A DNA stretch of 18,737 bases, taken from a virus. Under the pieces are notes generated by a model. The model ran no database searches. It had not been told where the DNA came from and saw nothing but the letters and a program-made list of their open reading frames with translations. The stretch is from the IMG/VR virus record IMGVR_UViG_3300027987_000266; one strand, written 5' to 3'. Made by a program: the position numbers and the translations under genes. Shown here one piece after another: positions 1 through 18,737 of the stretch (positions are counted from its first letter, which is position 1; each line of letters starts with the position of its first letter).

Positions 1-149
1 ATAACCCAGAGCTTGAGCTTGTCGCTGTCTGAGCCTTTGTTGAGGTCGATTTCGACGAGTTCTTGGCAGCCGCGATACAGCTTGGCCCAAGAGGACGTGC
101 CATGTTTGGCGGTGAGTCCGACCTCTTGGGCGATTTCTTCGGCGATCAT
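1..149 (-). CDS. hypothetical protein. Only the N-terminal 49 aa are visible; the gene runs off the left edge (MIAEEIAQEVGLTAKHGTSSWAKLYRGCQELVEIDLNKGSDSDKLKLWV...)
   Basis: ATG at 149..147 lies 8 nt after the TAA of the upstream gene. The frame stays open to position 1. It shares strand and packing with the rest of the array. There is no strong SD. Confidence 0.35.
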   Translation of the reverse strand, partial: MIAEEIAQEVGLTAKHGTSSWAKLYRGCQELVEIDLNKGSDSDKLKLWV

Positions 150-157
150 GTGGGCTG

Positions 158-514
158 TTAGATCGGCCATTCGTTGTTCGGTGCCTTGATGACGATTTCT
201 TGGGCTTGTTCGATGCTGACTCCGGCTCCGCAGAGGAAGGCGAGCAGCATGCCGCTCCAATCGTAGGAGTTGTACGGGTCGATGCGTTGTGAATTGTTGT
301 AGATCTCGCCGATCCATCGTTGGCGGACTGGTTCGAGGTCTTGGTCGCCGAACTTGCGGAATTGGGTGATGGCGTGTTGCAGTCCCTCAAGTCCGATTTG
401 GCGGGTTTGGACGGTGCTGATGCGGACGGGGAGTGCTGCTTGGCCTGCCGGAATTGGGCGGTCGGTGAGCATGCAGTTGGCTTTGCCGGTGGCTGTTTTG
501 GTGGCTTCTATCAT
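158..514 (-). CDS. hypothetical protein, 118 aa
   Basis: ATG at 514 is preceded by AGGAGAaacaa. Start and stop are both inside ATGA overlaps. The ORF track confirms the frame. Confidence 0.7.
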   Translation of the reverse strand: MIEATKTATGKANCMLTDRPIPAGQAALPVRISTVQTRQIGLEGLQHAITQFRKFGDQDLEPVRQRWIGEIYNNSQRIDPYNSYDWSGMLLAFLCGAGVSIEQAQEIVIKAPNNEWPI

Positions 515-618
515 TTGTTTCTCCTGAATAGACGGCTGAGGAGTCGTAGAATCCAGTGCTGCTTTTTGGGCTTGATGCGGGCTTGCAGGAGTTTGATGGC
601 TGTTTCTTCGTCCGTCAT
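511..618 (-). CDS. small basic protein, 35 aa (MTDEETAIKLLQARIKPKKQHWILRLLSRLFRRNK). It is below the 60-aa ORF-track cutoff and so absent from the track.
   Basis: ATG 618..616 overlaps the TGA of the upstream gene (ATGA). Its TGA 513..511 overlaps the ATG of the downstream gene (ATGA). It fills a 100-nt gap that is otherwise unexplained. Codon use matches the neighbours. Confidence 0.4.
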   Translation of the reverse strand: MTDEETAIKLLQARIKPKKQHWILRLLSRLFRRNK

Positions 619-1070
619 TTCGCCTCCGCTGGAAGGAATCGGCGGCAGGTGTCGGGCTTAATGGGTGTCTTGATTTGGACGAATCGCCGGTCTGGGTCGG
701 CTAAAGTTGCGTGCACTCCGTCGATCTCCATGATCGTGTACTCTTCGTCGTTGTGAATCAGTGTGCCGTGATCACGACTGATAACGACGAGATCACCGGG
801 AGTGCCGGGATCGACGACGTCGGCCAGCAGAATCCAGTATTGGTTGTTGGCGTGTTCCAGCTTCTGCGTGGACTGCAGGAGGTAAAACTCGAAATCGACT
901 GTTCCGGCCATTTCAGCACTCCAACCAAGGGATTTCAGGGCGGTTGCGGCGAGTCCTTGCTTGATGCTCGCCGCCATAAGTGCTTGTTGCGGATCGTCTG
1001 TGGCGAGATAAATGGAGTCGTAGACGCTTCCGATTGAGTTCCTGATTCTCCAAACGTGCATGTTAGTCAT
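615..1070 (-). CDS. hypothetical protein, 151 aa from ATG 1070 (the ORF track extends it to 1106). Member of the C-terminal DLADP-module family (..YTIMEIDGVHATLADPDRRFVQIK..)
   Basis: ATG 1070..1068 sits in a gATGAc-taa context that overlaps the upstream stop by 8 nt. Long ORF. Confidence 0.6.
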   Translation of the reverse strand: MTNMHVWRIRNSIGSVYDSIYLATDDPQQALMAASIKQGLAATALKSLGWSAEMAGTVDFEFYLLQSTQKLEHANNQYWILLADVVDPGTPGDLVVISRDHGTLIHNDEEYTIMEIDGVHATLADPDRRFVQIKTPIKPDTCRRFLPAEAK

Positions 1071-1488
1071 CGTAAAGCTCCGACACAGGACGTCCGAGAA
1101 CGACAAGGTGGACGTTCATCCGACGAAGTATTGTCTCGATACTGTTGGGATCGGAGAGATCGTGACGACTAGTTCCAGCCCAAGATTGATTCGCTGGATC
1201 GAAGAATTGTAGCCGCAACTGATTCTCATCCAGTCGCAGGTCTGCGAACGGCCGCTCGTATCCGGCAGTGAGTCGCCAGTGGGACGCGGGGTGGCGGACC
1301 GGGCGGCTGTTGTCGTCGATGAAGTAAGTGTCGGGATTGAGGGAGACGCTGCGTGGTCCCTTGATTACGACAACTTCACCGCTGGGGCGGTAGAATCTGA
1401 CGTACTCGCCCACTGAAAGCTCTAGGTGCGGTTCTGCGACGTAGCCCTCGAAGGACTCGACGAGTGCTTTGGCTAAGGCTTCGAGCAT
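1063..1488 (-). CDS. hypothetical protein, 141 aa. DLADP-module family (..LRLQFFDPANQSWAGTSRHDLSDPNSIETILRRM..)
   Basis: ATG at 1488. There is a 16-nt overlap with the upstream gene. ORF track. Confidence 0.65.
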   Translation of the reverse strand: MLEALAKALVESFEGYVAEPHLELSVGEYVRFYRPSGEVVVIKGPRSVSLNPDTYFIDDNSRPVRHPASHWRLTAGYERPFADLRLDENQLRLQFFDPANQSWAGTSRHDLSDPNSIETILRRMNVHLVVLGRPVSELYDD

Positions 1489-1877
1489 GGTGCGACAGGA
1501 ACGACCGTCAGGTTGTCTACGAGCAGGTCGTCGATCCTTTCTTGGGCTGCTTCTTCTGATGGGTAGAGCGTCGCTTCGAAGAAGTTGCGGTGGAATTCGT
1601 CGGCTTCGTCGTCGCCGTTGATGTAATGGTCGTACCAGAGATTGCGGGCTTCGTCGTAGATGACGTAGGCTGCAGCTTCGATCTTCAACGCTCTGACGGA
1701 ATATGCTGTGTCAGTGCCGACCACGTGCCAAGCGACGACAGCACCTTGTGTCCAGTCTTCCGGCAATTCCGTCAGTTCGGCATTCGCATGCTTTTCTGCA
1801 ATTGCTCGTAGTCCGTCGATCGTGTTCGGACCGTAGACTTCGGTGCCGTTTGGTCCTTCGATTGTTAGAACGTACAC
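1473..1877 (-). CDS. hypothetical protein, about 134 aa from GTG 1877 (VYVLTIEGPNGTEVYGPNTIDGL...). The ORF-track extension to 2120 is a Ser/Thr/Asn-rich alternate frame of the next gene.
   Basis: AGGAGActgacc GTG gives a strong SD at correct spacing. The stop of the upstream gene (1888) lies just upstream. Confidence 0.55.
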   Translation of the reverse strand: MYVLTIEGPNGTEVYGPNTIDGLRAIAEKHANAELTELPEDWTQGAVVAWHVVGTDTAYSVRALKIEAAAYVIYDEARNLWYDHYINGDDEADEFHRNFFEATLYPSEEAAQERIDDLLVDNLTVVPVAPCSKP

Positions 1878-1887
1878 GGTCAGTCTC

Positions 1888-2886: not shown

Positions 2887-2889
2887 TCC

Positions 2890-3234
2890 TCAGACCCTCA
2901 GGACTTTTTTCAGGTGTTCTAATACGGTGTCGGGGAATTGTGGGTCGGCGAGATCGAACTCGACGCGGTTGGCGACGTTGTTACTGAGTGCCAGTACGCC
3001 GTCCCAACAGAAAACCGTTGTGCGATGTAGGCAGATTCCAGGACTCCCTCCTCGTTTGCCAGTGGTGAGAAATCTGAGAGTCGGTGCCGAAGTTCGCTCT
3101 TTGTCGTGGAGAGTGCGGACGACGTCGAGCAGAATGTCGTTGGCGAGACAGAGTTCGTCGATCAGCTTAATCACAGCGTCTCGAATCTCGTTCTCGATGC
3201 CTTTCGCTTTCTTGATGGCCTTGCCCCTTGGCAT
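2890..3234 (-). CDS. hypothetical protein, 114 aa from ATG 3234 (MPRGKAIKKAKGIENEIRD...). DLADP-module family (..NRVEFDLADPQFPDTVLEHLKKVLRV)
   Basis: GGAGGcgactgATG gives a strong SD. The TGATG start/stop shares 1 nt with the upstream gene. The ORF-track start at 3270 would overlap 36 nt. Confidence 0.6.
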   Translation of the reverse strand: MPRGKAIKKAKGIENEIRDAVIKLIDELCLANDILLDVVRTLHDKERTSAPTLRFLTTGKRGGSPGICLHRTTVFCWDGVLALSNNVANRVEFDLADPQFPDTVLEHLKKVLRV

Positions 3235-3713: not shown

Positions 3714-3714
3714 G

Positions 3715-4161
3715 TTACCCCGCAAAGAATCGAAGGAGGTTGCTGAGAATGGCCAGGATGGCTCCGGCGAGGGCGACCTTCGCCCAGAAGATAGCTCGCT
3801 TTGAGTGCTTGATGGCGAGTTCGCTGTGGTGCATCGCTTCGCCTTCATGCCACTGTGCCTGTTGGCGGTGCCATTGTGGGGAGTTGCTGCAGATTCGCTT
3901 GATCTGGTTGTCGGCAGCGTTGTTGAACTCACCAAGATGGTAGTACCAGATACGCTCCGTCTCTGGTCGTGTAGTGTCCACTTTGTCGGTGAGCCAGAGC
4001 AGGTCGACGCACTCTGGCTCGTTATTCGCCTTGCAGAGCGAGATGCGGAAGAGGGCTTGGCCGTCGAGTTCGTAGTAGACGCTGGTGGCGTCTCCTTTGG
4101 TGGCCTCAAGGCCGTGGGTTCCGCGAATGTGTCGGATTGTCTGTTCGAGACTGTGGTTCAC
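3715..4161 (-). CDS. hypothetical protein, about 148 aa from GTG 4161. The C-terminus has a hydrophobic segment (AIFWAKVALAGAILAILSNLL), so it is probably membrane-anchored.
   Basis: GTGA overlap with the upstream stop. GAAAGG SD-like sequence lies 6 nt upstream. The track extension to 4374 is an Arg-rich alternate frame. Confidence 0.5.
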   Translation of the reverse strand: MNHSLEQTIRHIRGTHGLEATKGDATSVYYELDGQALFRISLCKANNEPECVDLLWLTDKVDTTRPETERIWYYHLGEFNNAADNQIKRICSNSPQWHRQQAQWHEGEAMHHSELAIKHSKRAIFWAKVALAGAILAILSNLLRFFAG

Positions 4162-4496: not shown

Positions 4497-4559
4497 TTTG
4501 CTGGTCTCCCGAACCGTGCGTTGTGTGTCTGCACGATTGTTGCAGAGACAGGCTCTCGG

Positions 4560-4895
4560 TTAACCCCCGTTGCCGAGATTCGCCACCGAGTCTTTGATCC
4601 ACTCCTTCACTTGGCGGGCGTTCGTGATGTCGTCTACTTCCTTCTTGCCGTTTGGGGTCTTGGTGAAGGCGTCGCTGTCCGGCTGGTAGTAGGCAGAACG
4701 GTGAATCTTACGACCCCGCTTGAGGCCGTCGCCGGGAGTGATCTTGATTGTCTCCATCTCAACCCGAAGCTTCGGGATCGTTTCAGGCTCCGCAATGTCT
4801 GCACCGGACTTGCCATGAAGGTGGAGTGTTGCTTTGATGGCGAACTGTAGCTGGAATGTGGTCTCTGCGATTTGGATTGACTGCGGTTTGCTCAT
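4560..4895 (-). CDS. hypothetical protein, 111 aa
   Basis: ATGA overlap with the upstream gene. Followed by a 63-nt non-coding gap. Confidence 0.7.
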   Translation of the reverse strand: MSKPQSIQIAETTFQLQFAIKATLHLHGKSGADIAEPETIPKLRVEMETIKITPGDGLKRGRKIHRSAYYQPDSDAFTKTPNGKKEVDDITNARQVKEWIKDSVANLGNGG

Positions 4896-7129: not shown

Positions 7130-7138
7130 GCCGAACTG

Positions 7139-7420
7139 TTACACAGAGGGCGTCGAGGTAAACGACGCGACCAGAGAGAGTTCTACGGCGACATAGCGAG
7201 GATCAACGCCGGATTGAGTGGTGAAAGACTGTATGAACTCGTCTTTGACGAAGCAGTTCTCGTCGAAGTGATCTACGAGATTCCAGGACGGTGCTCGATC
7301 CCCGTGCCATTTTGGCTGCCCAACGGTCCTGTCGAGTCCCCAATGGTCGTCGTCGAGTCGAATGAAAGCGACGACCTGATTCGATTCGCCGCCACGATGG
7401 ATGATCACCTTTCGAGGCAT
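7139..7420 (-). CDS. hypothetical protein, about 93 aa from ATG 7420 (the track gives 7477)
   Basis: GGGAGGG lies upstream of ATG 7420. The 7477 start would overlap the upstream gene by 73 nt. Confidence 0.5.
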   Translation of the reverse strand: MPRKVIIHRGGESNQVVAFIRLDDDHWGLDRTVGQPKWHGDRAPSWNLVDHFDENCFVKDEFIQSFTTQSGVDPRYVAVELSLVASFTSTPSV

Positions 7421-7845
7421 CGTGCTGGTACCCTCCCAAACTTTTTCTGCATGACGATCGCCAAGCATTCCCACCACGTGTCCTCGTCGCCCTCAGGAGG
7501 CTCCGTCACGAGTCCCCTCGCTTTGCATGCAACGAGTCGCGGAGTTTCAATCTCGATCCATCGCCAAATCCGGTCGAACAGGTGAGGGTCGGCGAACATG
7601 AAGTCCCGCCACAGGTCGTAGCCTGTAGTCACTGAGATGCCCTCTGATGCGATGCGAATGCTCCAGTTGACTTCGACGTCCATTTCTCGATACTCGCCGC
7701 TTACGTTCCACGACGTCTCATCGAAATTCGGCAAGTTCGTCATATGCGGTGGATTATGGCTCTCGTAGTTCTTGCCGACTGTGTGGCCAGTCCGTCGCCG
7801 TGCTTGCTCTTTGAGTTCGTCGGCGATGATTTTGTGGATGTTCAT
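7405..7845 (-). CDS. hypothetical protein, 146 aa. DLADP-like module (..WRDFMFADPHLFDRIWRWIEIE..)
   Basis: ATGA overlap at the start. Confidence 0.7.
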   Translation of the reverse strand: MNIHKIIADELKEQARRRTGHTVGKNYESHNPPHMTNLPNFDETSWNVSGEYREMDVEVNWSIRIASEGISVTTGYDLWRDFMFADPHLFDRIWRWIEIETPRLVACKARGLVTEPPEGDEDTWWECLAIVMQKKFGRVPARCLER

Positions 7846-8186
7846 TGTCTCGGTATCGGCGTGTAGAATTCGACTAGCCTGTCGATGCTCGTTGGGTCGT
7901 TCAGGTCAACTGTCAAGCACTCGCCAATTGAGAGCCACGTGTCGTTGAGGTTTACGTTGTGGTGTGTGTGCCCGCATTTGAACTTGAGTGGTTCGCCGCT
8001 CCAAATCAGCTGTTGGTCAATCCCTTTGATCTTGATCGGCTCGATCTTGACGACGCCGAAGATGTGTTCCTGTTCCGGATTTCGTTCGTCGTCGTCTGGT
8101 GCCCAATAGTGGACTTCGACGCCTGTCCTTTCGGTGATCTCAATGACGATCGCTGTGAGCGTGTCGTTCTTTAGAATTCTGTCCAT
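7842..8186 (-). CDS. hypothetical protein, 114 aa. DLADP-like module (..CLTVDLNDPTSIDRLVEFY..)
   Basis: ATGA overlap at the stop. 16-nt overlap at the start. Confidence 0.7.
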   Translation of the reverse strand: MDRILKNDTLTAIVIEITERTGVEVHYWAPDDDERNPEQEHIFGVVKIEPIKIKGIDQQLIWSGEPLKFKCGHTHHNVNLNDTWLSIGECLTVDLNDPTSIDRLVEFYTPIPRQ

Positions 8187-8857
8187 TCGCCGTCGAGTAT
8201 CCTTTTCGTGTTGCCCTCGACTTCGTCCTTTGGTGTGGTGCGTAGGGCAATGACGGTTTGTTCGATCTGTTCGAGTTCCTCATCTTCAATGCGGAAGTGT
8301 CTTTTGACGGCGTGTCGCCACGGGAAGTCGAGGTCGTACGGGTCGATGTTGAACCATTTTCGCAAGGCCCAGGCGACGAGCATTCTGCCGAGTGTGAATT
8401 TCTTGGATTCCTCTTTTGGCGGGGCTTCGTCGGGGACAAAGACGTATTCTTGGTCGGTGTCCTTGTATTGTCGCTTCCATTTGGAGGGGCGTTTGTTGTG
8501 TTCTTTGATGTGCTTGTCGAGGAATGCACCTAGGACGTCACAGAAGTCGGGGCGGTAAATGTCGATTCTGATTTCGTCGAAAGCGTTGACTGGTCTGCCG
8601 GTGATGGTGTGGTAGCGGAGGTCCCACCGCTCCAGCCGGATAGGTTTGTCGTCCTTGAAGGCGATCACTTTCACGGCGGCTCGGTCTGGGTCGTAGGTGA
8701 TGTAGATCGGGCCTTCGTACTCGATCACGCGTTTGGTTTGTTCGGCGTAGCAGACGGTGTGGACGTGGTAGTTGTCGGAACGGTGCTTGATGCCTCGTTC
8801 TCGCATTGTGACGCGGATCAGTTCTCTGACGCCTTTTGTGATTTGTTCCATCACCAT
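8171..8857 (-). CDS. hypothetical protein, 228 aa
   Basis: ATG at 8857. Long clean ORF. Confidence 0.7.
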   Translation of the reverse strand: MVMEQITKGVRELIRVTMRERGIKHRSDNYHVHTVCYAEQTKRVIEYEGPIYITYDPDRAAVKVIAFKDDKPIRLERWDLRYHTITGRPVNAFDEIRIDIYRPDFCDVLGAFLDKHIKEHNKRPSKWKRQYKDTDQEYVFVPDEAPPKEESKKFTLGRMLVAWALRKWFNIDPYDLDFPWRHAVKRHFRIEDEELEQIEQTVIALRTTPKDEVEGNTKRILDGEWTEF

Positions 8858-9006
8858 GCCCTATCTGAAACTCGGTCTGGCAGAAATCGCTTCCAGAGCC
8901 AGTAGTCGAGTGCCTTGTTGAGTGTTGACTTTCTCCATGGCGGCTGCTTTTTTGGCGGCAGGAGAAGCCAGCGTTTGTGGATTTTCTTTGCCTGCCTCTT
9001 TTTCAT
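8851..9006 (-). CDS. small basic Trp-rich protein, 51 aa (MKKRQAKKIHKRWLLLPPKKQPPWRKSTLNKALDYWLWKRFLPDRVSDRAW). Absent from the ORF track because it is under 60 aa.
   Basis: ATG 9006..9004 overlaps the TGA of the upstream gene (ATGA). The stop overlaps the ATGgtg start of the downstream gene by 7 nt. It fills a 145-nt gap. Confidence 0.4.
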   Translation of the reverse strand: MKKRQAKKIHKRWLLLPPKKQPPWRKSTLNKALDYWLWKRFLPDRVSDRAW

Positions 9007-9359
9007 AGTTCTGGATCGTCTGTTACGATGCGTCCGCCACCATCGTACCGCTTGAGAATCACGTAGTTGTGCAAATGGCGGAAGAGATTGGGGTCAGCGT
9101 AGTCGACGGGGTAAACTGAATTGGACGGATGGCCCGGAAGCACGTACGCTCTCGTTGGAGTGCACCGGATTTGATAGAACATCTGGCGACGCCCGCTTGG
9201 AGTCTTGTCGTCTCGAACGTAGTAGTTGCCGCAGACGTTCCACGAGTCCATGCTGTGACGCTGGATTTTGACGCTGTGGTCGCTGACGGTCCGCTTGATC
9301 CATTCTTCGATGCTGATGGCGATCTGGCAGACTGTGTGTTGTCGGTCGTACGTTCTCAT
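9003..9359 (-). CDS. hypothetical protein, 118 aa from ATG 9359. DLADP-like module (..VYPVDYADPNLFRHLHNYVIL..)
   Basis: ATGA overlap with the upstream stop. The track extension to 9377 is less likely. Confidence 0.6.
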   Translation of the reverse strand: MRTYDRQHTVCQIAISIEEWIKRTVSDHSVKIQRHSMDSWNVCGNYYVRDDKTPSGRRQMFYQIRCTPTRAYVLPGHPSNSVYPVDYADPNLFRHLHNYVILKRYDGGGRIVTDDPEL

Positions 9360-9538
9360 GCTGCTTTCTGCCAACAAGTCTTGTCGTTGATCTCTTCGTC
9401 GTAATAGCGGAATTCGGGTTGTCGGCCTTCGTTCTTGAGTGCGGCGATAATCCGGAAAAGGGCCGCTGGCTCTTCGGTCTTGATGGTGGCTGTCATTCCG
9501 TCGAATTTGACTTCGACTTCGGTGGTGTTGGTTCGCAT
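9356..9538 (-). CDS. hypothetical small protein, about 60 aa (start uncertain: 9538 has AAGGA-8nt-ATG; 9496 gives an ATGA overlap and 46 aa)
   Basis: ORF track. Candidate starts all have SD or coupling signals. Confidence 0.4.
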   Translation of the reverse strand: MRTNTTEVEVKFDGMTATIKTEEPAALFRIIAALKNEGRQPEFRYYDEEINDKTCWQKAA

Positions 9539-9891
9539 GGGTTCCATCCTTTGTGAACGTGGTTGTGAACTTTCTCGAAAAACTCAGGATCGGCGAGATC
9601 GAACTCGACGATTGGCTGTGGCCCTTCTGGCTTCTCTTCCTTCTGTGACCACCTGCCGGTAATCAGCCTTCGCTGCAAGTAAAGCTTGCCGTTGGTAAGT
9701 CCAAAGGCGAAGCAAGGAGACACTCTCCAGCTGTCGTCGCTTATAACCGGCTTTGCACAGACGTAGCTCTCATGAGTGTCTGGGGTTTCGCCGCTGTGGA
9801 GTTCGCACTCTTCACAAATCTGATGCCACAGCATCCGATTCTCGAAATCCATCGAGTGCAGCTCTTGTCCTTTGAAGACGGTCACTTTCAT
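9493..9891 (-). CDS. hypothetical Cys/His-containing protein, 132 aa. DLADP-module family (..PIVEFDLADPEFFEKVHNHV..)
   Basis: ATGA overlap at the start. Confidence 0.7.
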   Translation of the reverse strand: MKVTVFKGQELHSMDFENRMLWHQICEECELHSGETPDTHESYVCAKPVISDDSWRVSPCFAFGLTNGKLYLQRRLITGRWSQKEEKPEGPQPIVEFDLADPEFFEKVHNHVHKGWNPCEPTPPKSKSNSTE

Positions 9892-11895: not shown

Positions 11896-11903
11896 GCAGT
11901 GTT

Positions 11904-11959
11904 CTCCGTTGCGGGGGCGTGGTGATCTGTACACAAGAGTGTTACAAGACCCAACGGAG
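11904..11959 (-). promoter_or_regulatory. Inverted repeat CTCCGTTG(c)GG ... CCCAACGGAG flanking about 38 nt. In the minus-strand mRNA the 3' arm contains the GGAG of the SD of gene 11335..11895.
   Basis: 8 bp plus a bulge plus 2 bp of complementarity, read from the sequence. The SD GGAGAA (revcomp of 11902..11907) lies in the arm. Confidence 0.3.
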
Positions 11960-11973
11960 CGTAAAACGCAGAG

Positions 11974-12528
11974 CTAACCCATTGTCGAGTACACGTGGAG
12001 AATGTCGAGTTCTGTGGCCGCCTTCTTGGCATGCTCTACAGCCAGCTCGATGCTGTCAGGGCATTCCAGATAGTAAGTGCGAGGCCCAAACTCCGTGAGA
12101 TGGTCGTAGTCCTTCCGTCTGTCTGGCCAAATCGCTTCGTCAACGTGGATGTTCGGACGATCGCACTTATAGTTGGCCTGGACTGTAAGCGGGCAGGCTC
12201 GCATCACGGAGTCACAAGCAACCCTGTACTTCCCGATACGCCAGTGTTCCGGTTCCGGCGTTAGATAGAGAATTGCGGGTCCTGGCTTTACGTCCTGGTC
12301 CTCACTCTTGGGTGTCGGTTTGTGACGCTGAAAATCGAGCCAAATGAAGCCCTCGACCACTGTGAGATTGAGCGGTCGTAGCTCTTCGGCTATACCGAGG
12401 ATTACGGCGAAGTTTTCTTTGTGGGCGTCGAGGATGCCGCCGTTGACTCTTGTCTCGATCTTCAAAGTGCTGGCCTTTCGTTCGGATAGCCGAGTCTCTT
12501 CAAGTGCCAGTGTAGCTTTTTGATGCAA
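11974..12528 (-). CDS. hypothetical protein, 184 aa from TTG 12528, or 164 aa from TTG 12465 (TTGA overlap with SD-like GAAAGG). C-terminal variant of the module (..YYLECPDSIELAVEHAKKAATEL..)
   Basis: ORF track. Start is uncertain. Confidence 0.5.
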   Translation of the reverse strand: MHQKATLALEETRLSERKASTLKIETRVNGGILDAHKENFAVILGIAEELRPLNLTVVEGFIWLDFQRHKPTPKSEDQDVKPGPAILYLTPEPEHWRIGKYRVACDSVMRACPLTVQANYKCDRPNIHVDEAIWPDRRKDYDHLTEFGPRTYYLECPDSIELAVEHAKKAATELDILHVYSTMG

Positions 12529-12920
12529 GATTCTATGGAGTCAGGATCGGCTAAGTCCCACTTGTACGGACTTGTGGGAGTATCGCCGACGACTCGTGCT
12601 CCGAATTCGTCGTGGCCGATCTCTCGGTGGAGTACCAGTTCGAGACGGTTACCACGGATTTTGAACGTGGCGGCCTTGAAGTATCGGTCTTTGAAGGCTT
12701 CGATTTCTTCGGCTGTCTCTGCCAGACTCGCATCAGCACCACGGTAAATGTCGTAGTGGGCGAAGAGCGTGCCGACGCCTCTTTTGATGAGCAGGTGGTC
12801 CCACGAAGATAGGTACAAGCGAAGGGCGTCGGCAATAGTGCCGACGCCCATCGAATTCTCTGCTCGACGTCTGCTTTGTTCGCTTCTGTCGATTGCTTGT
12901 TGGGACGATCTGACCGTCAC
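12462..12920 (-). CDS. hypothetical protein, 152 aa. DLADP-module family (..KAATFKIRGNRLELVLH..YKWDLADPDSIESCIKKLHWHLKRL..)
   Basis: GTGA overlap with the ligase stop. Confidence 0.7.
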   Translation of the reverse strand: MTVRSSQQAIDRSEQSRRRAENSMGVGTIADALRLYLSSWDHLLIKRGVGTLFAHYDIYRGADASLAETAEEIEAFKDRYFKAATFKIRGNRLELVLHREIGHDEFGARVVGDTPTSPYKWDLADPDSIESCIKKLHWHLKRLGYPNERPAL

Positions 12921-15202
12921 GCTTCGACCGGCTCCTTTTTCGGCAGTTCGGCCTGACCATCCAGCACTTTGCGGATGAAGGCCAAGCTGACGATCTGCGT
13001 GTAGCCGTTGGCTTCCGCATTTTTGGCCTTGTTGGTGACCTGCGTGGCGTCTTTCTGGATCAGGAAGTCGGGAGAGGGCTTGGACTTGGCCACGCCGCTC
13101 GTGAAGACTCCGCCCTTGGCTTCGATCTCGTCCATGTAGGCACGAGTCCCGGTGATGCAGAAGGTGAGTCCGGCGAGGGGCAGATTCGGGTCTGCTTGTC
13201 CGTTGCCGGTGGTCGCGGTTGGGGCGGGCTTTGCTGCGGGGTAGTCGATGGTCACGCCGACTGCCAGCAGCTTGTCGATCAATCCACGGCTCTCTTTGAT
13301 GCCGTGAACCACCGCGTCGCGGATCGTGTCGCCGAGTCCCTCAATCTCCATCTTCGCGAATTCGTCAGTGTCCAGCCAGTCTTCGAGCTTGTCGAGACGG
13401 CCACCGGCTGCGTCGCGGAGCAGGATCACGCGTCGGCGTCCGAGCAGGTCGATACCGAGTGATCCGAGGAAGACCTCCAGCTTGAGATTCCGCTTGTTCT
13501 GGATGTTGTTCACGATCGTCTCGGCTCGCGATCGTCCCACTCGCCCGCCGCTGTCAAGCGTCAGGTTCTCCAAATCCTCAGGCTTGAGGTTGTAGAGATC
13601 GGCGGGATCGCTGACGATGTTGTTGTCCCACATGGCCTTGAGGATGCCGTCACCGATGTTCAGGATTCCGGTTCCCTTCTTCGACGAACCGATCCACTTG
13701 TCGACTTTGCCCTTCAATGCCTCAGGGCATTTGTCGGCTTGTGAGCAGTACGTCACAGCTCCCTTCTTGCCGCGATAGTTGCGGGTGGTCGGCTCGCCGC
13801 AGGACGGGCATCGCTTCGGCTCTTCGATTGGCTTGCGATTCGGGGATTCGGTGACGCACCGAATGACCTTCGGGATAATGTCCCCGGCCAGCACGACCTC
13901 GACTTCGTCGTTGATGGCGACGCCGAGCCGCTCGATCTCGTCCCAATTGTTCAGCAGTGCGTGCGTCACGTTGACGCCACCGATGCGGACTTCCTCGAAG
14001 ACGGCGGTCGGGTAGATTCCTCCGGTGTGGCCGACGCTGAGAATGACGTCCTTGATTGTCGTCGTGTTCGATTTGTGCGGGAACTTGACGGCACGAGCGT
14101 ACTTGGGCCGCAGCCGCGTCTTGATGTCGTCGGTGATGAATGGAAGGTGGTAGGCGATCTCATTGAGGACCACCACGATTCCGTCGATTTCGAACGGCAG
14201 CTTGTCGCGGTTGGCAACTGTCTCGGTGTAGAAGTCGTTGAACTCGTCGACAGTTGTGCAGACTTTGTACGGGACGGGCTGGAAGCCGAGGCCGCGAAGG
14301 CTCTCCATCTTCTCCGCTTCTGTGTGGAACTTGGCGGCGTCGTGCTGCTCATCGCCATCGAACTCGACATTGAAAGCGATGAAGGTGATTCTCTCGGAAT
14401 CCTGGCCGTCGTCGCGACCGAACACGCCGTTCCCGATGTTGCGGGGATTGCTGCGGTCGGCTTCGGGAATCTGATCGAACGGCTGACCGGCGTCACGCTC
14501 GACGACCTCTTTGTAGTCGGCGACGTACATGACCGCCTCACCGCGAACGTCGCAGCTGACGGAGTGCGGCAGGATTGTGGGCAGTCGCCGGAAGTTGGCT
14601 CCGTTCACCGTGATGTCTTGGCCGGTCTCGCCGTCACCGCGTGTGGCGACACGGACCAGTTTGCCATTCTCGTAGGTGGCACAGATGCTTCCGCCATCGA
14701 CCTTGAGAGAGGCGAAAATCTCGACAGGCAGATCGGCGTCGGGCACGTCGTTGACAATCCCCTCTGCCGCGAGACGCTGGCGAGTGGCTTCGACGACGTC
14801 GGCTGCAGCTGAGTGCAGCTTCGTCGTTACGTCTTCGAGCCACGGCTCGTAACCAGCGATGCCGTTGTCGGTGTTGTCGAGCGATCCCATCGGGATGTTG
14901 TGCTTGACCTTGTTGCGAAGGTCGCCAGCGTCGAACGGGAGGCCGACTCGACCAATCCGCTCGTCATTGGGATCGAGTTGTTTCAGAGCGGGCCGCAACA
15001 GATCGTAGTCGGAGTCCGGCATGATCTGAGACGAGCCTGGGCGGTAGTAGGCGACGTCGGCTTTGTCGATGATCAGCCGAAGCTCGTCGGCCGTCAGTTC
15101 GTTGACGGCGTAGCCTGCTCCGTCTTGGTAGAGCTTGAAGAGTTCGACTCGACGATCGGACTCACGGATCAGGTTGAGCCATTGCGGTGCAGCGTTCGGC
15201 AT
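12917..15202 (-). CDS. ligA: NAD(+)-dependent DNA ligase LigA, 761 aa
   Basis: Adenylation KxDG block SLKVDGGSICATYENGKLVRVATRGDGETGQDIT aligns closely with E. coli LigA. N-terminal Ia-like YRPGSSQIMPDSDYDLLRPALKQL. Four-Cys zinc finger CPSCGEP...YCSQADKCPE. HhH region GLGDTIRDAVVHGI. C-terminal BRCT-like LAGLTFCITGTRAYMDEIEAKGGVF... Confidence 0.93.
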   Translation of the reverse strand: MPNAAPQWLNLIRESDRRVELFKLYQDGAGYAVNELTADELRLIIDKADVAYYRPGSSQIMPDSDYDLLRPALKQLDPNDERIGRVGLPFDAGDLRNKVKHNIPMGSLDNTDNGIAGYEPWLEDVTTKLHSAAADVVEATRQRLAAEGIVNDVPDADLPVEIFASLKVDGGSICATYENGKLVRVATRGDGETGQDITVNGANFRRLPTILPHSVSCDVRGEAVMYVADYKEVVERDAGQPFDQIPEADRSNPRNIGNGVFGRDDGQDSERITFIAFNVEFDGDEQHDAAKFHTEAEKMESLRGLGFQPVPYKVCTTVDEFNDFYTETVANRDKLPFEIDGIVVVLNEIAYHLPFITDDIKTRLRPKYARAVKFPHKSNTTTIKDVILSVGHTGGIYPTAVFEEVRIGGVNVTHALLNNWDEIERLGVAINDEVEVVLAGDIIPKVIRCVTESPNRKPIEEPKRCPSCGEPTTRNYRGKKGAVTYCSQADKCPEALKGKVDKWIGSSKKGTGILNIGDGILKAMWDNNIVSDPADLYNLKPEDLENLTLDSGGRVGRSRAETIVNNIQNKRNLKLEVFLGSLGIDLLGRRRVILLRDAAGGRLDKLEDWLDTDEFAKMEIEGLGDTIRDAVVHGIKESRGLIDKLLAVGVTIDYPAAKPAPTATTGNGQADPNLPLAGLTFCITGTRAYMDEIEAKGGVFTSGVAKSKPSPDFLIQKDATQVTNKAKNAEANGYTQIVSLAFIRKVLDGQAELPKKEPVEA

Positions 15203-15286
15203 GTGTTTTGCGTCCTATGCTGGAGGTTGGGAATCTGCTTTGTTGTTGCAGGGCGAATACTCCCCGTTAATCAAATACCGCAAGAC

Positions 15287-15793
15287 TCACTCGGTGATTC
15301 CTGTGGCTTCTCGCCACTTGAGAAGGCGATAGTTGCCCTTGATTGTCGCAAAGAGGCGGTCCATGCTGTCGGGTGCGTCAAGGTCGATCTCTACGGTGTC
15401 GTCCACCGTATCGATTTCTTGGTATCCCGTTCCCTCGCACTCCCAACAACTGTCGTCTCCGTCTCCCCGCCGCTCAATTTCTTCCGGACAGGTGCACTGA
15501 CCAGTGCCCTCACAGTCCGGGCATTCTTTTTGGCTTACGTCTGTGAAGACGAGTTGGCAACGCAAACGTGGATTCGCCCGCAGCTTGAGAATGCAGACGC
15601 GGGACCAAACTGGCTTAGCGTGCCCTAGAAGAATGGAGAGGCCGTCCTCACAAGTCCGCGTCATATCCTGAAACAGAGCGAGAACGGCATGAGTTCTGTG
15701 GACTGTAACTCGCATGTACGGCCACGACCGTAGCTCGTCGGCAATTGCTCTTTTGAACTCTTTGGGGATTTGTTTTGTGCTAACGTCTCTCAC
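15287..15793 (-). CDS. DnaJ-type zinc-finger (CxxCxGxG x2) protein, 168 aa, with a C-terminal DLADP-like module (..VEIDLDAPDSMDRLFATIKGNYRLL..)
   Basis: CPDCEGTGQC and CWECEGTGYQ match the DnaJ CR-domain repeat CxxCxGxG. GTG start with a 14-nt overlap. Confidence 0.6.
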   Translation of the reverse strand: MRDVSTKQIPKEFKRAIADELRSWPYMRVTVHRTHAVLALFQDMTRTCEDGLSILLGHAKPVWSRVCILKLRANPRLRCQLVFTDVSQKECPDCEGTGQCTCPEEIERRGDGDDSCWECEGTGYQEIDTVDDTVEIDLDAPDSMDRLFATIKGNYRLLKWREATGITE

Positions 15794-16439: not shown

Positions 16440-16440
16440 G

Positions 16441-16869
16441 TTACTCCTGCGTCTGCACTGACCAATGGGTTTTGGTTCCTTCCCGATTCACGCTCGCTTT
16501 CCGGAGTGCGTCGTCCAACAGGGACAAGGAGAGGGCGACGGTCTTCGGATCGTCGATCTCGTCGGGATTCAGTTCGATCAGGTTCTTCGTCTCGACGGTG
16601 ATTGGCGGGTGTAGACGGTCACTCAGGAGCAGCTTGAGGTCCGAGCCGCTGCCAAGATGCACCGGACCGAGACAGTCGGGATTCGTGCCACCGCCAACGG
16701 TCTTGACCATCGCTGGCTCGCTCGGTCCGAAGTTGGCTTTTGTCCTGATTTGTTCATCGAACTCGACAATGTAACCCTCAGCATAACGGCTGAGGAAGTC
16801 GAGAAGGATTTGTGTGCCGCTACTCCTGCTGAGGTTGCGGCTGCCGCTGACGTCTACAAAGATTCTCAT
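16441..16869 (-). CDS. compact vWA/MIDAS-like protein, about 142 aa from ATG 16869 (MRIFVDVSGSRN...VGGGTNPD...LKLLLSD)
   Basis: ATGA overlap with the upstream stop. D-x-S-x-S at the N-terminus, GGGT about 50 aa later and LLLSD about 25 aa after that follow MIDAS spacing. Motif-level only. Confidence 0.55.
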   Translation of the reverse strand: MRIFVDVSGSRNLSRSSGTQILLDFLSRYAEGYIVEFDEQIRTKANFGPSEPAMVKTVGGGTNPDCLGPVHLGSGSDLKLLLSDRLHPPITVETKNLIELNPDEIDDPKTVALSLSLLDDALRKASVNREGTKTHWSVQTQE

Positions 16870-17234
16870 GTTTGTCTCCCGAACTCGGCGATTTTCGCCA
16901 AAAGTGATTGCTTGTCCGGACCAGCAAGGCCGGTCTCGGTGTCCAAGTACACACCAGTGTCGAGGCATTGTTGGCACAAACACCATGCAGCAGCGAAGAC
17001 GTCGAAGCTGTGCCGATCCGTGTCAATGTACCACACCGGATGCCGCTCGTGGCAGCAGTCGCAAGGCCCACTGTCCGGCTCGTTCATCGGCTGGATCAGC
17101 AGATTCTCAGGACGCACGCGGAGACGCTGAATGAGATCGACGATCGGCTGTAGAATCTCACCGATGCCCTCGTCGGGGCGTCCGTCGATCAGACCTTCGA
17201 GTGTGTCAATGGCGTCTTGTACTTCGCTCGACAT
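16866..17234 (-). CDS. hypothetical Cys-rich protein, 122 aa (..CDCCHERH..CLCQQC..)
   Basis: AGGAGAaacaacaATG gives a strong SD. Confidence 0.7.
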   Translation of the reverse strand: MSSEVQDAIDTLEGLIDGRPDEGIGEILQPIVDLIQRLRVRPENLLIQPMNEPDSGPCDCCHERHPVWYIDTDRHSFDVFAAAWCLCQQCLDTGVYLDTETGLAGPDKQSLLAKIAEFGRQT

Positions 17235-17250
17235 TGTTGTTTCTCCTGCT

Positions 17251-17265
17251 CTTTTGTTACAAAAG
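17251..17265. promoter_or_regulatory. 15-bp perfect palindrome CTTTTGT-T-ACAAAAG in the 42-nt gap upstream of the SD of gene 16866..17234. Candidate operator/promoter element.
   Basis: Read directly from the sequence. The loop is too tight for a simple hairpin, which favours a dimeric protein-binding site. It overlaps the recurring TTGTTACAA-AGACC motif. Confidence 0.3.
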
Positions 17266-17276
17266 ACCGTCGCTGG

Positions 17277-18044
17277 TTAATCAGAATCGTGGAGATTCTT
17301 CACGAACAACAGGATGTCGTCATAGCAGTCGGGGCTGAGAATGTCGAACACCTTGACTCTCCGCATTTCGATCGATTCCGGGTCAGTCTTGATCTCGTCA
17401 ATCGGATTCTCTTCCCAGGCGACGATGATCTGGCTCAAGTGGATTCGAACGAGGATTTTCTTGTTGCCGACGAAGGTCTGAAAGCTCAATCGACGATACT
17501 CACCACCATTCCTCGATCGTACCTCGTCTTTCACGTTGTCGATCTGAAAATCGAGTTCCCATGATTCGTTCAAGATCAAGAGCAACGGGAAAAGAATCGC
17601 CAGTTCTTCGCTGAATCCTCCTTTCCATCTGCTCCAATCAACGTGATTGGCAAGCTCCATTGGAGTCTCACAGCCATCTTGCGGCGAGAAGCCACCCATA
17701 GTCCACGAAGCTTTGTGATAACGCCACTTGCCGTCTTCGTGCCAACCGCCCTTGCTCCAAATCTCGGTGTTCGCACCGGGAATGAATGGGACGTTGCGTC
17801 TCCGCTCTACTGTTCCGCTACAGTATCCTGCGTTCGCCACCATGAATTCCTGGTAGATGCGAATGAAGAGAAGCTCTTCCGTCGTCGGCATTTCGCTGTT
17901 GGCTTGCAGACAAAACAATGGCATCGGCGGCTGTGTGAAGACCATGAAAAGAGAATTGCCGTCACTCAAGCCCTCAGTCTGGCCAATGCCGTGATTGAGA
18001 AGAGTCTCGACGTGTCTGTTGACCTTGTCAGATTTAGTCATCAT
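17277..18044 (-). CDS. hypothetical protein, 255 aa. DLADP-like module (..RRVKVFDILSPDCYDDILLFVKNLH..)
   Basis: ATGA overlap with the upstream stop. Confidence 0.7.
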   Translation of the reverse strand: MMTKSDKVNRHVETLLNHGIGQTEGLSDGNSLFMVFTQPPMPLFCLQANSEMPTTEELLFIRIYQEFMVANAGYCSGTVERRRNVPFIPGANTEIWSKGGWHEDGKWRYHKASWTMGGFSPQDGCETPMELANHVDWSRWKGGFSEELAILFPLLLILNESWELDFQIDNVKDEVRSRNGGEYRRLSFQTFVGNKKILVRIHLSQIIVAWEENPIDEIKTDPESIEMRRVKVFDILSPDCYDDILLFVKNLHDSD

Positions 18045-18511
18045 TTGCGGTGATAATCCAAATAGTCGAGAATGTGGTCAAAGCAGTCGGGATCTGCCAG
18101 ATTGAAATCACGGCTGTTGTCGTACAACGCCATGCTGATACTCACCTTGTCGTCGCTGACCTCTATCGTGGCGAAATGGTCGCTCTTGTACTGCCCAAAC
18201 AGTCGTCGAGAATTCTTACCAACGACCTCGGACTTGATGCCAAAGCTCTCATTGATCAGACGACAAATGTCGTCCACGACATAGTGGTAACACTCTCCTT
18301 CTTGCCAGACAAGCTCACCGGCCGCCTCTGTGAGCTTGCCGGTGTGGTGCGGATCGTGGTATTTCACAACGTGAATCGAAGAGACATACTCACTACCGCA
18401 ACAGGCATGGCGTGCCTTCTGCTTCGCATCGTCGATTGTGTCAGCCTCAACAAAATGGTACGCTGTCGGCAGCAGACCACAATCGTGAGGACAGATGGCG
18501 ACGAGCTTCAC
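18041..18511 (-). CDS. hypothetical Cys/His-rich protein, 156 aa. DLADP-module family (..DHFATIEVSDDKVSISMALY..RDFNLADPDCFDHILDYLDYH..)
   Basis: GTGA overlap with the upstream stop. Confidence 0.7.
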   Translation of the reverse strand: MKLVAICPHDCGLLPTAYHFVEADTIDDAKQKARHACCGSEYVSSIHVVKYHDPHHTGKLTEAAGELVWQEGECYHYVVDDICRLINESFGIKSEVVGKNSRRLFGQYKSDHFATIEVSDDKVSISMALYDNSRDFNLADPDCFDHILDYLDYHRK

Positions 18512-18723
18512 GGCTTTCTTCCGAATCGGGTGTTGTAGCTGGCAGAGTGACAGGTGAGTTTCGGCGTGACTTTGCCGCTCACGAGAGCCTGCAGAGCCGT
18601 GGCGAGTGCCGGTGGCTCGTCCGCCATGGTCGTCGATTCGAGCAGGCGGAGCCGCTCGCGGACTTGGGCGACGTTGAGGTCGCTGTCGACGACGTACTCG
18701 ATTTTGATCCTGAACTGGTTCAT
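18508..18723 (-). CDS. hypothetical protein, 71 aa
   Basis: AGGAGAaactATG gives a strong SD at the right edge of the window. Confidence 0.6.
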   Translation of the reverse strand: MNQFRIKIEYVVDSDLNVAQVRERLRLLESTTMADEPPALATALQALVSGKVTPKLTCHSASYNTRFGRKP

Positions 18724-18737
18724 AGTTTCTCCTGTGC

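What the first reader, a model, noticed from the sequence alone, without database searches (positions are those of the whole stretch)
1..18737. Single-strand, translationally coupled array of about 38 mostly ORFan small genes: a phage-like early/replication module with no hallmark genes
All credible genes lie on the minus strand. At least 16 junctions are 4-nt ATGA/GTGA overlaps, and several more are 8 to 16-nt overlaps. Non-coding DNA is limited to about five short gaps. Median protein size is about 130 aa. Only LigA, a DnaJ-like zinc finger, a PD-(D/E)xK-like nuclease and a vWA-like protein are recognisable. No capsid, portal, terminase, tail, integrase or tRNA is present. This profile matches the host-takeover or DNA-metabolism region of a large virulent phage or phage-like element, where novel anti-defence or host-modulating functions are usually found.
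Basis: partly seen in the sequence, partly recalled or inferred. Interest (0 to 1): 0.55.

Follow-up and report, generated by a model that had tools for sequence, protein, structure and literature searches.

The report
Large phage's small-gene accessory array
This window is one stretch of a longer, one-directional run of tightly packed small genes of unknown function in a large uncultivated bacteriophage; this is a familiar kind of phage region, and its extras are a private expanded protein family and a shared promoter signal.

Summary
The gene array is real. There are 37 complete and 2 cut genes, all on the minus strand, and 98.4% of the window is coding. Eighteen junctions are 4-nt start/stop overlaps and ten more overlap by other lengths. 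Only five gaps are 27 nt or longer. There are no tRNAs and no Rfam hits.

Only the NAD-dependent DNA ligase is recognised by Pfam or PHROGs. The 'vWA-like' and 'PD-(D/E)xK-like' calls have no support. The 'DnaJ-like' zinc finger is just two CxxCxGxG motifs.

The window lies on a 111-kb metagenome contig. Its downstream part is 99.8% identical to a 146.8-kb IMG/VR viral contig, which implies a genome of about 175 kb or more. The same-strand array covers at least 30 kb and about 66 genes. About 75 kb was inspected. It holds a helicase, thymidylate synthase, an HNH endonuclease, radical-SAM genes and phage-only PHROG families. It holds no cellular housekeeping genes and no virion genes.

Two additions:
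- Every gap carries a bipartite promoter-like motif, TT(T/A)AC-N14-15-TGYAACA. The motif is conserved in relatives of 40-46% GC and splits the window into six transcription units.
- Seven to ten of the small proteins form a lineage-restricted family with a C-terminal 'DLADP-helix' motif.

Verdict: an accessory, host-takeover-type region of a large phage. It is a new member of a known kind, and every function except the ligase's is inferred.

The parts
1..18737 (-). Segment of a unidirectional array of small genes (37 complete, 2 cut at the window ends). The whole array covers at least 30 kb and about 66 genes on the parent 111-kb contig.
   Evidence: ORF and GC3 analysis; junction table; gene calls on the parent contig.
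12917..15202 (-). g08, NAD-dependent DNA ligase (LigA), 761 aa. It is the only gene with an assignable function.
   Evidence: PF01653 at 6.2e-34, PF03120 at 3.8e-22, weak C4 zinc-finger hit. KVDG motif in the sequence. 57-58% identical homologs in three IMG/VR contigs. At most 30% identity to ligases of cultured phages. 35-37% identity to Polyangiaceae MAG ligases.
17255..17280 (-). Promoter-like site P1 (TTAAC-N14-TGTAACA) in the 42-nt gap before g04.
15244..15270 (-). Promoter-like site P2 (TTAAC-N15-TGCAACA) in the 84-nt gap before LigA. A site sits at the same position before LigA in relatives L007 and L009.
11940..11965 (-). Promoter-like site P3 (TTTAC-N14-TGTAACA) in the 78-nt gap before g11.
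7137..7162 (-). Promoter-like site P4 (TTTAC-N14-TGTAACA). It spans the 3' end of g21 and the gap before g22.
4538..4563 (-). Promoter-like site P5 (TTAAC-N14-TGCAACA) in the 63-nt gap before g28.
18041..18511 (-). g02, DLADP-family member (…FNLADPDCFDHILDYL). An ortholog, P0005, lies on a 2-kb contig from another run.
12462..12920 (-). g09, DLADP-family member (…WDLADPDSIESCIKKL).
9493..9891 (-). g14, DLADP-family member (…FDLADPEFFEKVHNHV). Modelled with AF2.
9003..9359 (-). g16, DLADP-family member (…VDYADPNLFRHLHNYV).
7842..8186 (-). g19, DLADP-family member (…VDLNDPTSIDRLVEFY). Its leave-one-out score is only just above the decoys.
2890..3234 (-). g31, DLADP-family member (…FDLADPQFPDTVLEHL).
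1063..1488 (-). g34, DLADP-family member (…HDLSDPNSIETILRRM). Modelled with AF2.
15287..15793 (-). g07, probable family member (…IDLDAPDSMDRLFATI) with an inserted pair of CxxCxGxG zinc-finger motifs.
   Evidence: Sequence. Weak profile hits. Not significant in the leave-one-out test.
7405..7845 (-). g20, probable family member (…FMFADPHLFDRIWRWI) with a C-terminal extension.
   Evidence: BLASTP to g02 at E 6e-4 in the window-only database. Not significant in the leave-one-out test.
8171..8857 (-). g18, probable family member with an internal motif (IDIYRPDFCDVLGAFL). It is the most widely conserved ORFan tested, with 7 homologs at 42-61% identity.
   Evidence: The homolog in L026 reads IDIHDPKFCDILGKFL.
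The call is not supported.
   Evidence: No Pfam, PHROG or PDB-sequence hit.
3715..4161 (-). g29, the only window protein with a likely transmembrane helix, at its C-terminus.
   Evidence: Hydropathy maximum 1.98 over 19 residues.

Best explanation
The window is part of the non-structural accessory region of a large, uncultivated tailed phage. The union of overlapping contigs gives a genome of about 175 kb or more. The region combines host-takeover-type small genes with DNA-metabolism genes.

How it most likely works:
- Transcription starts at a lineage-specific, sigma70-like bipartite promoter. It has a -35-like TT(T/A)AC, a spacer of about 17 nt ending in an extended-10 TG, and a -10-like AACA(A/C)T. 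One such site sits in each of the five gaps, so the window holds six polycistronic units: g01-g03, g04-g07, g08-g10, g11-g21, g22-g27 and g28-g36 onward.
- No terminators separate the units, so read-through is expected.
- Within a unit, ribosomes pass from gene to gene by termination-reinitiation at the ATGA/GTGA overlaps. This would give coordinated production of many small soluble, mostly acidic proteins.
- LigA seals nicks in phage DNA during replication, recombination or repair.
- Seven to ten of the small proteins belong to one expanded, fast-diverging family. Each has an N-terminal helix, a variable middle, a beta-meander, and a C-terminal helix capped by the 'DLADP' motif. I infer that they are small protein-binding modulators of host or phage machinery, each paralog with its own target.

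Shown: the gene layout, the overlaps, the motif positions, the ligase identity, the family relationship and the viral context.
Inferred: promoter function, translational coupling, early or middle timing, and every effector function.
For: - Layout and overlaps.
- Ligase.
- Promoter motif in the window: all six TGYAACA matches are on the coding strand. Five of them fall in the 294 nt of gaps, which is 1.6% of the window, and each of those five has TTWAC 14-15 nt upstream.
- Promoter motif elsewhere: it recurs in the upstream and downstream flanks, and in relatives of 40-46% GC. In L007 and L009 it sits directly before LigA.
- Start-site signal: a pyrimidine-purine step lies 7-8 nt after AACA in 14 of 18 instances, counted by hand from the sequences.
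- Terminators: no terminator-like site on the coding strand.
- Viral context: a 146.8-kb IMG/VR contig is 99.8% identical over 8.3 kb of overlap. Relatives lie on 408-kb and 279-kb IMG/VR contigs.
- Neighbouring genes: phrog_13321 (5e-32), phrog_19870 (4e-50), thymidylate synthase (3e-56), HNH endonuclease, a ResIII/SNF2 helicase and radical-SAM proteins.
- Array length: it continues for 22 more genes upstream.
- Family: shared motif and architecture. Seven members beat all 3,350 shuffled decoys in leave-one-out tests. A second cluster of five lies downstream, and single members occur in relatives.
- Protein properties: mostly acidic and soluble.
Against: - No capsid, terminase, portal or tail gene was found in the roughly 75 kb I could read. 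Phage identity is therefore indirect.
- There are no expression data. The motif could be an operator or another signal rather than a promoter.
- The -10-like AACA core differs from the usual TATAAT. It resembles the AR9 non-virion RNA polymerase late promoter, AACA-N6-T(A/G) (PMC5312081), so the genes might not be 'early'.
- The family found nothing beyond near-self in 1.84 billion representative proteins, so no functional annotation can be transferred.
Confidence: 0.75

Rival explanations
1. This is the same phage region, but the promoters are read by a phage-encoded transcription apparatus, either a phage sigma factor or a multisubunit phage RNA polymerase as in AR9 and phiKZ-like jumbo phages. 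The array would then be a middle or late-class accessory region rather than host-polymerase-driven early genes.
For: The invariant AACA core followed by N6 and a pyrimidine-purine step matches the AR9 late consensus AACA-N6-T(A/G), where the last base is the start site (PMC5312081). The motif is conserved across relatives whose GC ranges from 40% to 58%, which suggests a specificity carried by the phage lineage rather than by different hosts. Relatives have jumbo-sized contigs of 279-408 kb.
Against: AR9 late promoters have no -35-like element. Here a TTWAC box sits at sigma70-like spacing, with a TG at the extended-10 position. No RNA polymerase or sigma gene was seen in the roughly 75 kb inspected. 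The relatives might simply share a host phylum.
Confidence: 0.25
2. The array belongs to a non-viral mobile element, such as a megaplasmid or another extrachromosomal element, that IMG/VR classed as viral by mistake.
For: No virion or packaging gene was found in about 75 kb. IMG/VR classification is automated. Ligase, helicase, thymidylate synthase and HNH genes also occur on plasmids.
Against: No replication-initiator, partition, conjugation or integrase gene was detected either. There are strong hits to phage-only PHROG families. The relatives are also in IMG/VR, at jumbo-phage sizes. A dense, one-directional run of ORFans with one strong shared promoter is typical of large lytic phages such as SPO1 (PMC6873191).
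Confidence: 0.08
3. The array is a chromosomal operon or island of a bacterium, conserved within a genus.
For: The nearest ligases in species genomes are in Polyangiaceae MAGs at 35-37% identity.
Against: Those loci have 63% GC and contain neither the promoter motif nor the family. No housekeeping gene was seen in the flanks. The ten window proteins looked up are each alone in their cluster and come from metagenomes only. Megablast found nothing in the phage collection, and the genome scan with LigA found no close relative.
Confidence: 0.03
4. The 'DLADP' similarity is not common descent. It would be a convergent short helix-capping motif in unrelated small proteins.
For: Pairwise identities are only 11-25%. 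Two motif-bearing proteins, g07 and g20, fail the leave-one-out test. D/S-P is a common helix N-cap.
Against: Seven window proteins and three from outside the window score above all 3,350 composition-matched decoys when left out of the model. The motif always sits 15-45 residues from the C-terminus, after a beta-strand. An N-terminal amphipathic helix of the I-A-x-E-L type recurs in many members. The members are clustered in the genome.
Confidence: 0.1

Closest known systems
[quoted passage not shown]
   Same: A dense cluster of mostly small genes of unknown function. It is organised into several operons, each with its own strong, stereotyped promoter and ribosome-binding sites. Its products shut down host processes (PMC6873191). 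The architecture and the inferred logic are the same.
   Different: There is no sequence similarity. The array here is longer (at least 30 kb, about 66 genes) and strictly one-directional. It contains a ligase and is dominated by one expanded protein family. Timing and toxicity are untested.
Early and non-structural regions of T4-like and jumbo phages, including the huge phages known from metagenomes
   Same: A genome above 170 kb, with long runs of ORFans mixed with nucleotide-metabolism and replication genes (ligase, helicase, thymidylate synthase, HNH endonucleases). The comparison with T4-like and jumbo phages is from my own knowledge; the gene content is.
   Different: No close cultured relative exists; LigA is at most 30% identical to any GenBank phage. 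The promoter consensus is unlike the T4 and phiKZ consensus sequences as I recall them.
Xanthomonas phage Xp10 protein P7 (PDB 6j9e chain J)
   Different: Sequence identity is 7-19%. The models are of low confidence. Frataxin/CyaY and type III secretion chaperones score about the same. The family proteins are twice as long, with an extra N-terminal helix and a variable middle. This is a resemblance, not membership.
AR9 non-virion RNA polymerase late promoters (AACA-N6-T(A/G))
   Same: They share an invariant AACA tetranucleotide followed, after six bases, by a pyrimidine-purine start-site step (14 of 18 instances here).
   Different: The sites here carry an additional conserved upstream TTWAC box and a TG directly before AACA, as in sigma70 extended-10 promoters. 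No phage RNA polymerase genes were seen, and there is no evidence of uracil DNA.
NAD-dependent DNA ligase LigA (for g08)
   Same: Adenylation and OB-fold domains, the KxDG motif and a C4 zinc finger.
   Different: The N-terminal 150 residues are divergent or extended. The HhH and BRCT regions were not picked up by Pfam at E of 0.1 or better.

Membership tests
NAD-dependent DNA ligase (LigA), g08 | Adenylation (nucleotidyltransferase) domain with the KxDG lysine motif | tested here: met
   PF01653 at E 6.2e-34. 'SLKVDGGS' is present in the translation.
NAD-dependent DNA ligase (LigA), g08 | OB-fold domain following the adenylation domain | tested here: met
   PF03120 at E 3.8e-22, residues 380-454.
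NAD-dependent DNA ligase (LigA), g08 | C4 zinc finger, HhH and BRCT C-terminal modules | tested here: inconclusive
   The zinc-finger model scores below its cut-off (E 0.055), although four Cys are present (CPSC…C…C). HhH and BRCT were not reported by Pfam. A BRCT-like 'LAGLTFCITGT' is visible by eye.
   No Pfam hit at E of 0.1 or better, no PHROG hit and no PDB-sequence hit. Only a DVSGS pentapeptide, in a 142-aa protein.
   No such hit for any of the 36 proteins scanned in Pfam or the 30 scanned in PHROGs. Fold-level similarity was not tested.
DnaJ cysteine-rich zinc-finger domain, g07 | Four CxxCxGxG repeats that match the DnaJ zinc-finger profile | tested here: not met
   Only two CxxCxGxG motifs (CPDCEGTG, CWECEGTG). 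There is no DnaJ profile hit, only zf-AtTam37 at E 0.015, below its cut-off. It resembles the motif but is not a member.
Tailed phage (Caudoviricetes) genome | Major capsid, portal and large terminase genes on the same molecule | not testable with these tools
   None were found in the roughly 75 kb reachable.
Tailed phage (Caudoviricetes) genome | Viral classification, phage-specific protein families and absence of cellular core genes | tested here: met
   IMG/VR UViG contigs. phrog_13321 at 5e-32, phrog_19870 at 4e-50, phage-type thymidylate synthase and HNH. No housekeeping genes in the flanks.
Sigma70-type promoter | A -35 hexamer and a -10 hexamer separated by 16-18 nt, positioned upstream of genes | tested here: inconclusive
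   TT(T/A)ACn, then 16-17 nt ending in TG, then AACA(A/C)T, present in every gap. The generic consensus scan did not single these sites out, because the -10 differs from TATAAT. No transcript data.
AR9-type non-virion RNA polymerase promoter | AACA-N6-T(A/G) with the start at the last base, plus phage multisubunit RNA polymerase genes in the genome | tested here: inconclusive
   AACA is invariant. A pyrimidine-purine step follows N6 in 14 of 18 sites, and TA or TG in 7 of those. RNA polymerase genes were not seen, but most of the genome is unread.
Xp10 P7-like fold (DLADP family) | Confident structural superposition and RNA polymerase binding | tested here: inconclusive
DLADP family (defined here) | C-terminal x-[DN]-[LY]-[ASN]-D-P-x-x-[FI]-x-x-[ILV] motif at a strand-to-helix junction, significant when the member is left out of the model | tested here: met
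   g02, g09, g14, g16, g19, g31 and g34 each beat all 3,350 shuffled decoys. g07 and g20 fail. g18, g03 and g10 are supported by motif only.

The most novel reading that the evidence does not exclude
The DLADP proteins would be a phage-lineage-specific, diversifying 'binder scaffold'. Conserved terminal helices and a beta-meander would carry a hypervariable middle, and at least 14 paralogs per genome would each neutralise a different host factor or defence system. They would be expressed from a promoter class read by a phage-encoded transcription factor or polymerase that is shared by a previously unrecognised clade of 175-400-kb phages spanning 40-58% GC.
Probability: 0.15. Interest if true: 0.6.

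Novelty: new member of a known kind. Interest (0 to 1): 0.33.

Why it matters
The layout itself is what large lytic phages are known to have, so it does not change any picture. Its practical value is as a catalogue. It gives about 66 co-directional small genes with defined transcription units. It gives a family of at least 14 paralogs with no relatives among 1.84 billion representative proteins. It also gives a sharply defined promoter consensus that can be used to find further members of this uncultivated phage clade and to predict its regulons. If the small proteins are host-takeover or anti-defence effectors, the family is a compact set of candidates for toxicity and interaction screens.

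Tried and rejected
- Megablast of the whole window against GenBank phages found nothing. LigA tblastn gave at most 30% identity, so there is no cultured relative.
- Pfam on 36 window proteins and PHROGs on 30 hit only LigA. PDB sequence searches with g05, g32, g13 and g03 found nothing meaningful.
- A family profile search of 5.8 billion proteins returned essentially only the input proteins plus P0003 and P0005. A search of 1.84 billion representatives did the same, with two weak extra hits, P0012 and P0013, that I did not pursue.
- Foldseek against BFVD found no hit at E of 1e-3 or better. The afdb50 library was unavailable.
- Walking upstream failed. Two IMG/VR scans and both metagenome scans found nothing. 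The 111-kb contig simply ends 9 kb upstream of the window.
- Walking downstream used four IMG/VR scans. It reached contig position 100,185 without meeting virion genes.
- Searching IMG/VR for the promoter subclass TTAACGGGG-N10-11-TGCAACA gave multiple hits only in the two contigs already known. The other 35 loci are replicated single chance matches.
- A sigma54 reading of the motif (GG-N10-GC) was rejected. The spacing fits only some sites, and TGTAACA variants lack the GC.
- The Polyangiaceae MAG loci were checked as a possible host or prophage context and rejected.
- A literature search for the sample and run accessions found nothing.

Full report
**Observation**

All credible coding in the 18,737-bp window is on the minus strand. 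Minus-strand ORFs show the expected codon-position GC pattern: GC3 is 0.6-0.78 and GC2 is 0.32-0.46. The overlapping alternative ORFs show the inverse pattern.

I chose starts using upstream Shine-Dalgarno-like sequences and overlaps with the preceding stop codon. I checked them against the independent gene calls on the parent contigs. The result is 37 complete genes plus one cut gene at each window end.

The junction table gives these counts:
- 18 four-nucleotide start/stop overlaps.
- 10 further overlaps of 1-46 nt.
- 5 tiny spacers of 1-10 nt.
- 5 gaps of 27-84 nt.

The window is 98.4% coding and the median product is 142 aa. ARAGORN finds no tRNA and Rfam finds nothing.

**What can be annotated**

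I scanned 36 window proteins against Pfam at E of 0.1 or better (0.05 for the last six), and 30 against PHROGs at E of 0.01 or better. Only g08 was recognised.

- g08 (12917-15202) is an NAD-dependent DNA ligase. The adenylation domain scores 6e-34 and the OB fold 4e-22. The KVDG motif and a C4 zinc finger are visible in the sequence.
- g07 has two CxxCxGxG motifs but no DnaJ profile match.
The likely candidate is g05, which starts MRIFVDVSGS. PDB sequence searches also found nothing.
- The ten proteins I looked up are each alone in their 90%-identity cluster and occur only in JGI and Logan metagenome assemblies.
- The largest ORFan, g32, has one homolog among 5.8 billion proteins. g18 has seven.

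**Context**

The ligase and g32 are encoded on JGI contig Ga0259481_10000192, which is 111,253 bp long. The window corresponds to roughly positions 83.4-102.1 kb of that contig, reversed.

Upstream, the same-strand array continues for 22 more small genes with no Pfam hits, up to the contig end. Downstream it continues for about nine more genes before two reverse-strand genes. The one-directional array therefore covers at least 30 kb and about 66 genes.

From about window position 145 onward, the sequence is 99.8% identical over 8,258 bp to the end of IMG/VR contig UViG_3300027987_000382, which is 146,839 bp long. If the two contigs are collinear, their union is about 174.5 kb.

Walking about 47 kb down that contig found the following:
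- A ResIII/SNF2 helicase and a 496-aa protein with a weak zincin-like hit.
- Two phage-only PHROG families, at 5e-32 and 4e-50.
- A thymidylate synthase at 3e-56 and two radical-SAM proteins.
- An HNH endonuclease, a nucleotide-sugar epimerase at 4e-74, and an acetyltransferase.

No cellular housekeeping gene and no virion gene was seen. More distant relatives lie on IMG/VR contigs of 408 kb and 279 kb. No cultured phage is close.

The nearest ligases in 185,579 species genomes are 35-37% identical, in Polyangiaceae MAGs. Those loci share nothing else with this element.

**Promoter-like motif**

All six matches to TGYAACA in the window are on the coding strand. Five of them lie in the five gaps, which together are 294 nt or 1.6% of the window. 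Each of the five is preceded, 14-15 nt upstream, by TTAAC or TTTAC.

Read as a sigma70-type promoter, this is:
- a -35-like TT(T/A)ACn box;
- a 16-17-nt spacer ending in an extended-10 TG;
- a -10-like AACA(A/C)T.

The same bipartite element recurs in the upstream and downstream flanks, sometimes as divergent pairs. It also occurs in relatives of 40-46% GC, and it sits directly upstream of the ligase gene in L007 and L009. A pyrimidine-purine step follows AACA-N6 in 14 of 18 instances, counted. This matches the geometry of AR9 late promoters, AACA-N6-T(A/G) (PMC5312081).

I read these sites as promoters that divide the window into six polycistronic units. Whether host sigma-A holoenzyme or a phage-encoded factor reads them is open. 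No terminator-like site lies on the coding strand.

**The DLADP family**

Nine window proteins (g02, g07, g09, g14, g16, g19, g20, g31, g34) share a motif 15-45 residues from the C-terminus (about 65 in g20, which has a C-terminal extension). The motif is x-[DN]-[LY]-[ASN]-D-P-x-x-[FI]-x-x-[ILV]. Many of them also share an N-terminal amphipathic helix.

In leave-one-out tests, seven of the nine outscore all 3,350 shuffled decoys: g02, g09, g14, g16, g19, g31 and g34. This holds for both the motif-only model and the full-length model. g07 and g20 do not pass. g07 carries the zinc-finger insertion.

g18 carries an internal variant of the motif. Its 46%-identical homolog in another metagenome has the canonical DP. 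g03 and g10 are possible members by eye.

A second cluster of five members lies about 27-29 kb downstream of the window on the same phage, at L005 14118-16340. Single members occur in relatives.

Profile searches of 5.8 billion proteins and of 1.84 billion representatives return essentially only these proteins. At that database size, only near-self scores can reach significance, so 'restricted' means 'not detectably wider'.

AF2 models of g14 and g34 are of low overall confidence (pLDDT 58 and 60). Both agree on a core with pLDDT 70-90: a 3-5-strand beta-meander followed by a helix that starts right after the DP. g34 also has an N-terminal helix. The middle region is variable and of low confidence.

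The window proteins are mostly acidic and soluble. Only g29 has a likely transmembrane helix.

**Interpretation**

The best explanation is the accessory, host-takeover-type and DNA-metabolism region of a large uncultivated phage.
- Transcription runs from a lineage-specific promoter in six units.
- Translation is coupled within units through the ATGA/GTGA overlaps.
- The region contains one replication and repair enzyme, LigA.
- It also contains an expanded family of small proteins that I infer to be binders or modulators of host or phage machinery.

The closest described analogue in architecture is the SPO1 host-takeover module, which has 26 small early genes in operons with their own strong promoters (PMC6873191).

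The phage context is well supported but indirect, because no virion gene was seen. Promoter function, coupling, timing and all effector roles are inferences.

**Rivals**

- Phage-polymerase-driven middle or late expression: plausible, about 0.25.
- A non-viral mobile element: about 0.08.
- A bacterial chromosomal operon: about 0.03.
- Convergence rather than homology for the motif: about 0.1.

**Novelty and score**

The kind of region is well known, and this is a new instance from an unstudied phage clade. The protein family and the promoter consensus are new descriptive items, but they are not surprising for a large phage. Interest is 0.33.

The most novel reading that the evidence does not exclude has two parts. 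The family would be a diversifying binder scaffold. The promoter class would be read by a phage-encoded apparatus shared across a 175-400-kb phage clade. I give this about 0.15 probability.

Noticed in passing
window 17255-17280, 15244-15270, 11940-11965, 7137-7162, 4538-4563 (minus strand); also L012 4380, 5642, 8279; L005 13936; L014 6755/6802; L015 3142; L006, L007, L009, L026: A bipartite promoter-like motif, TT(T/A)AC-N14-15-TGYAACA, sits in every intergenic gap. It is conserved in related viral contigs of 40-46% GC and lies directly upstream of LigA in two relatives.
   Followed up: yes
window 15244-15270; L005 ~13910-13960; L031 and L032 (408-kb contig): A subclass of these promoters has GGGG(A/G)(A/G)TAT in the spacer and AATTCCCC 15-20 nt downstream of TGCAACA. 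Together these form an inverted repeat around the -10-like element, which could be an operator.
   Followed up: partly
L005 14118-16340 (same phage, about 27-29 kb downstream of the window): A second tandem cluster of five DLADP-family genes. Their motifs read FPYADPDFPDTL, VDLAVPDALELV, FDMCDPGSLQAV, VDPADPDSFEKI and FEVGDPDFLDHV.
   Followed up: partly
L026 14489-19988 (JGI 3300040801 contig of 32.9 kb, carrying a 46%-identical homolog of g18): The related element encodes Cas3-like, Cas_GSU0053 and Cas_GSU0054 proteins, which suggests a type I CRISPR-Cas system. It also has dCTP deaminase/dUTPase, RNase H and a methyltransferase. This may be a phage-borne CRISPR-Cas system.
   Followed up: no
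L014 12330-18642 and L015 4716-9908 (IMG/VR contig about 100-118 kb): Thymidylate synthase, two radical-SAM proteins, a nucleotide-sugar epimerase and an acetyltransferase lie close together. This may be a DNA-hypermodification or sugar-modification cluster.
   Followed up: no
window 15287-15793 (g07): A family member with a pair of CxxCxGxG zinc-finger motifs inserted into the variable middle. Several other members (g02, g14, L005 14408-14884) are also Cys-rich in that region.
   Followed up: partly
window, whole length: All 19 terminator-like hairpin-plus-T-run hits are on the non-coding plus strand and none is on the coding strand. The plus strand is strongly T-rich, with AT skew about -0.2 throughout.
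   Followed up: no
window 511-618: A 35-aa ORF bridges g35 and g36 with 4-nt overlaps at both ends. It is called as a gene on both parent contigs, so the apparent 100-nt gap there is probably coding.
   Followed up: partly
L006 1-213, 18457-19347, 20008-20229 (408-kb IMG/VR contig): Weak homologs of g18, g35 and g27 lie near the homolog of the downstream 496-aa protein. A few ORFans are therefore shared across the clade, although gene order is not conserved.
   Followed up: partly
L016-L018 (Polyangiaceae and unclassified MAG contigs): The closest ligases in species genomes (35-37% identity) are from Polyangiaceae (Myxococcota) MAGs. This is at most a very weak hint about the host.
   Followed up: partly
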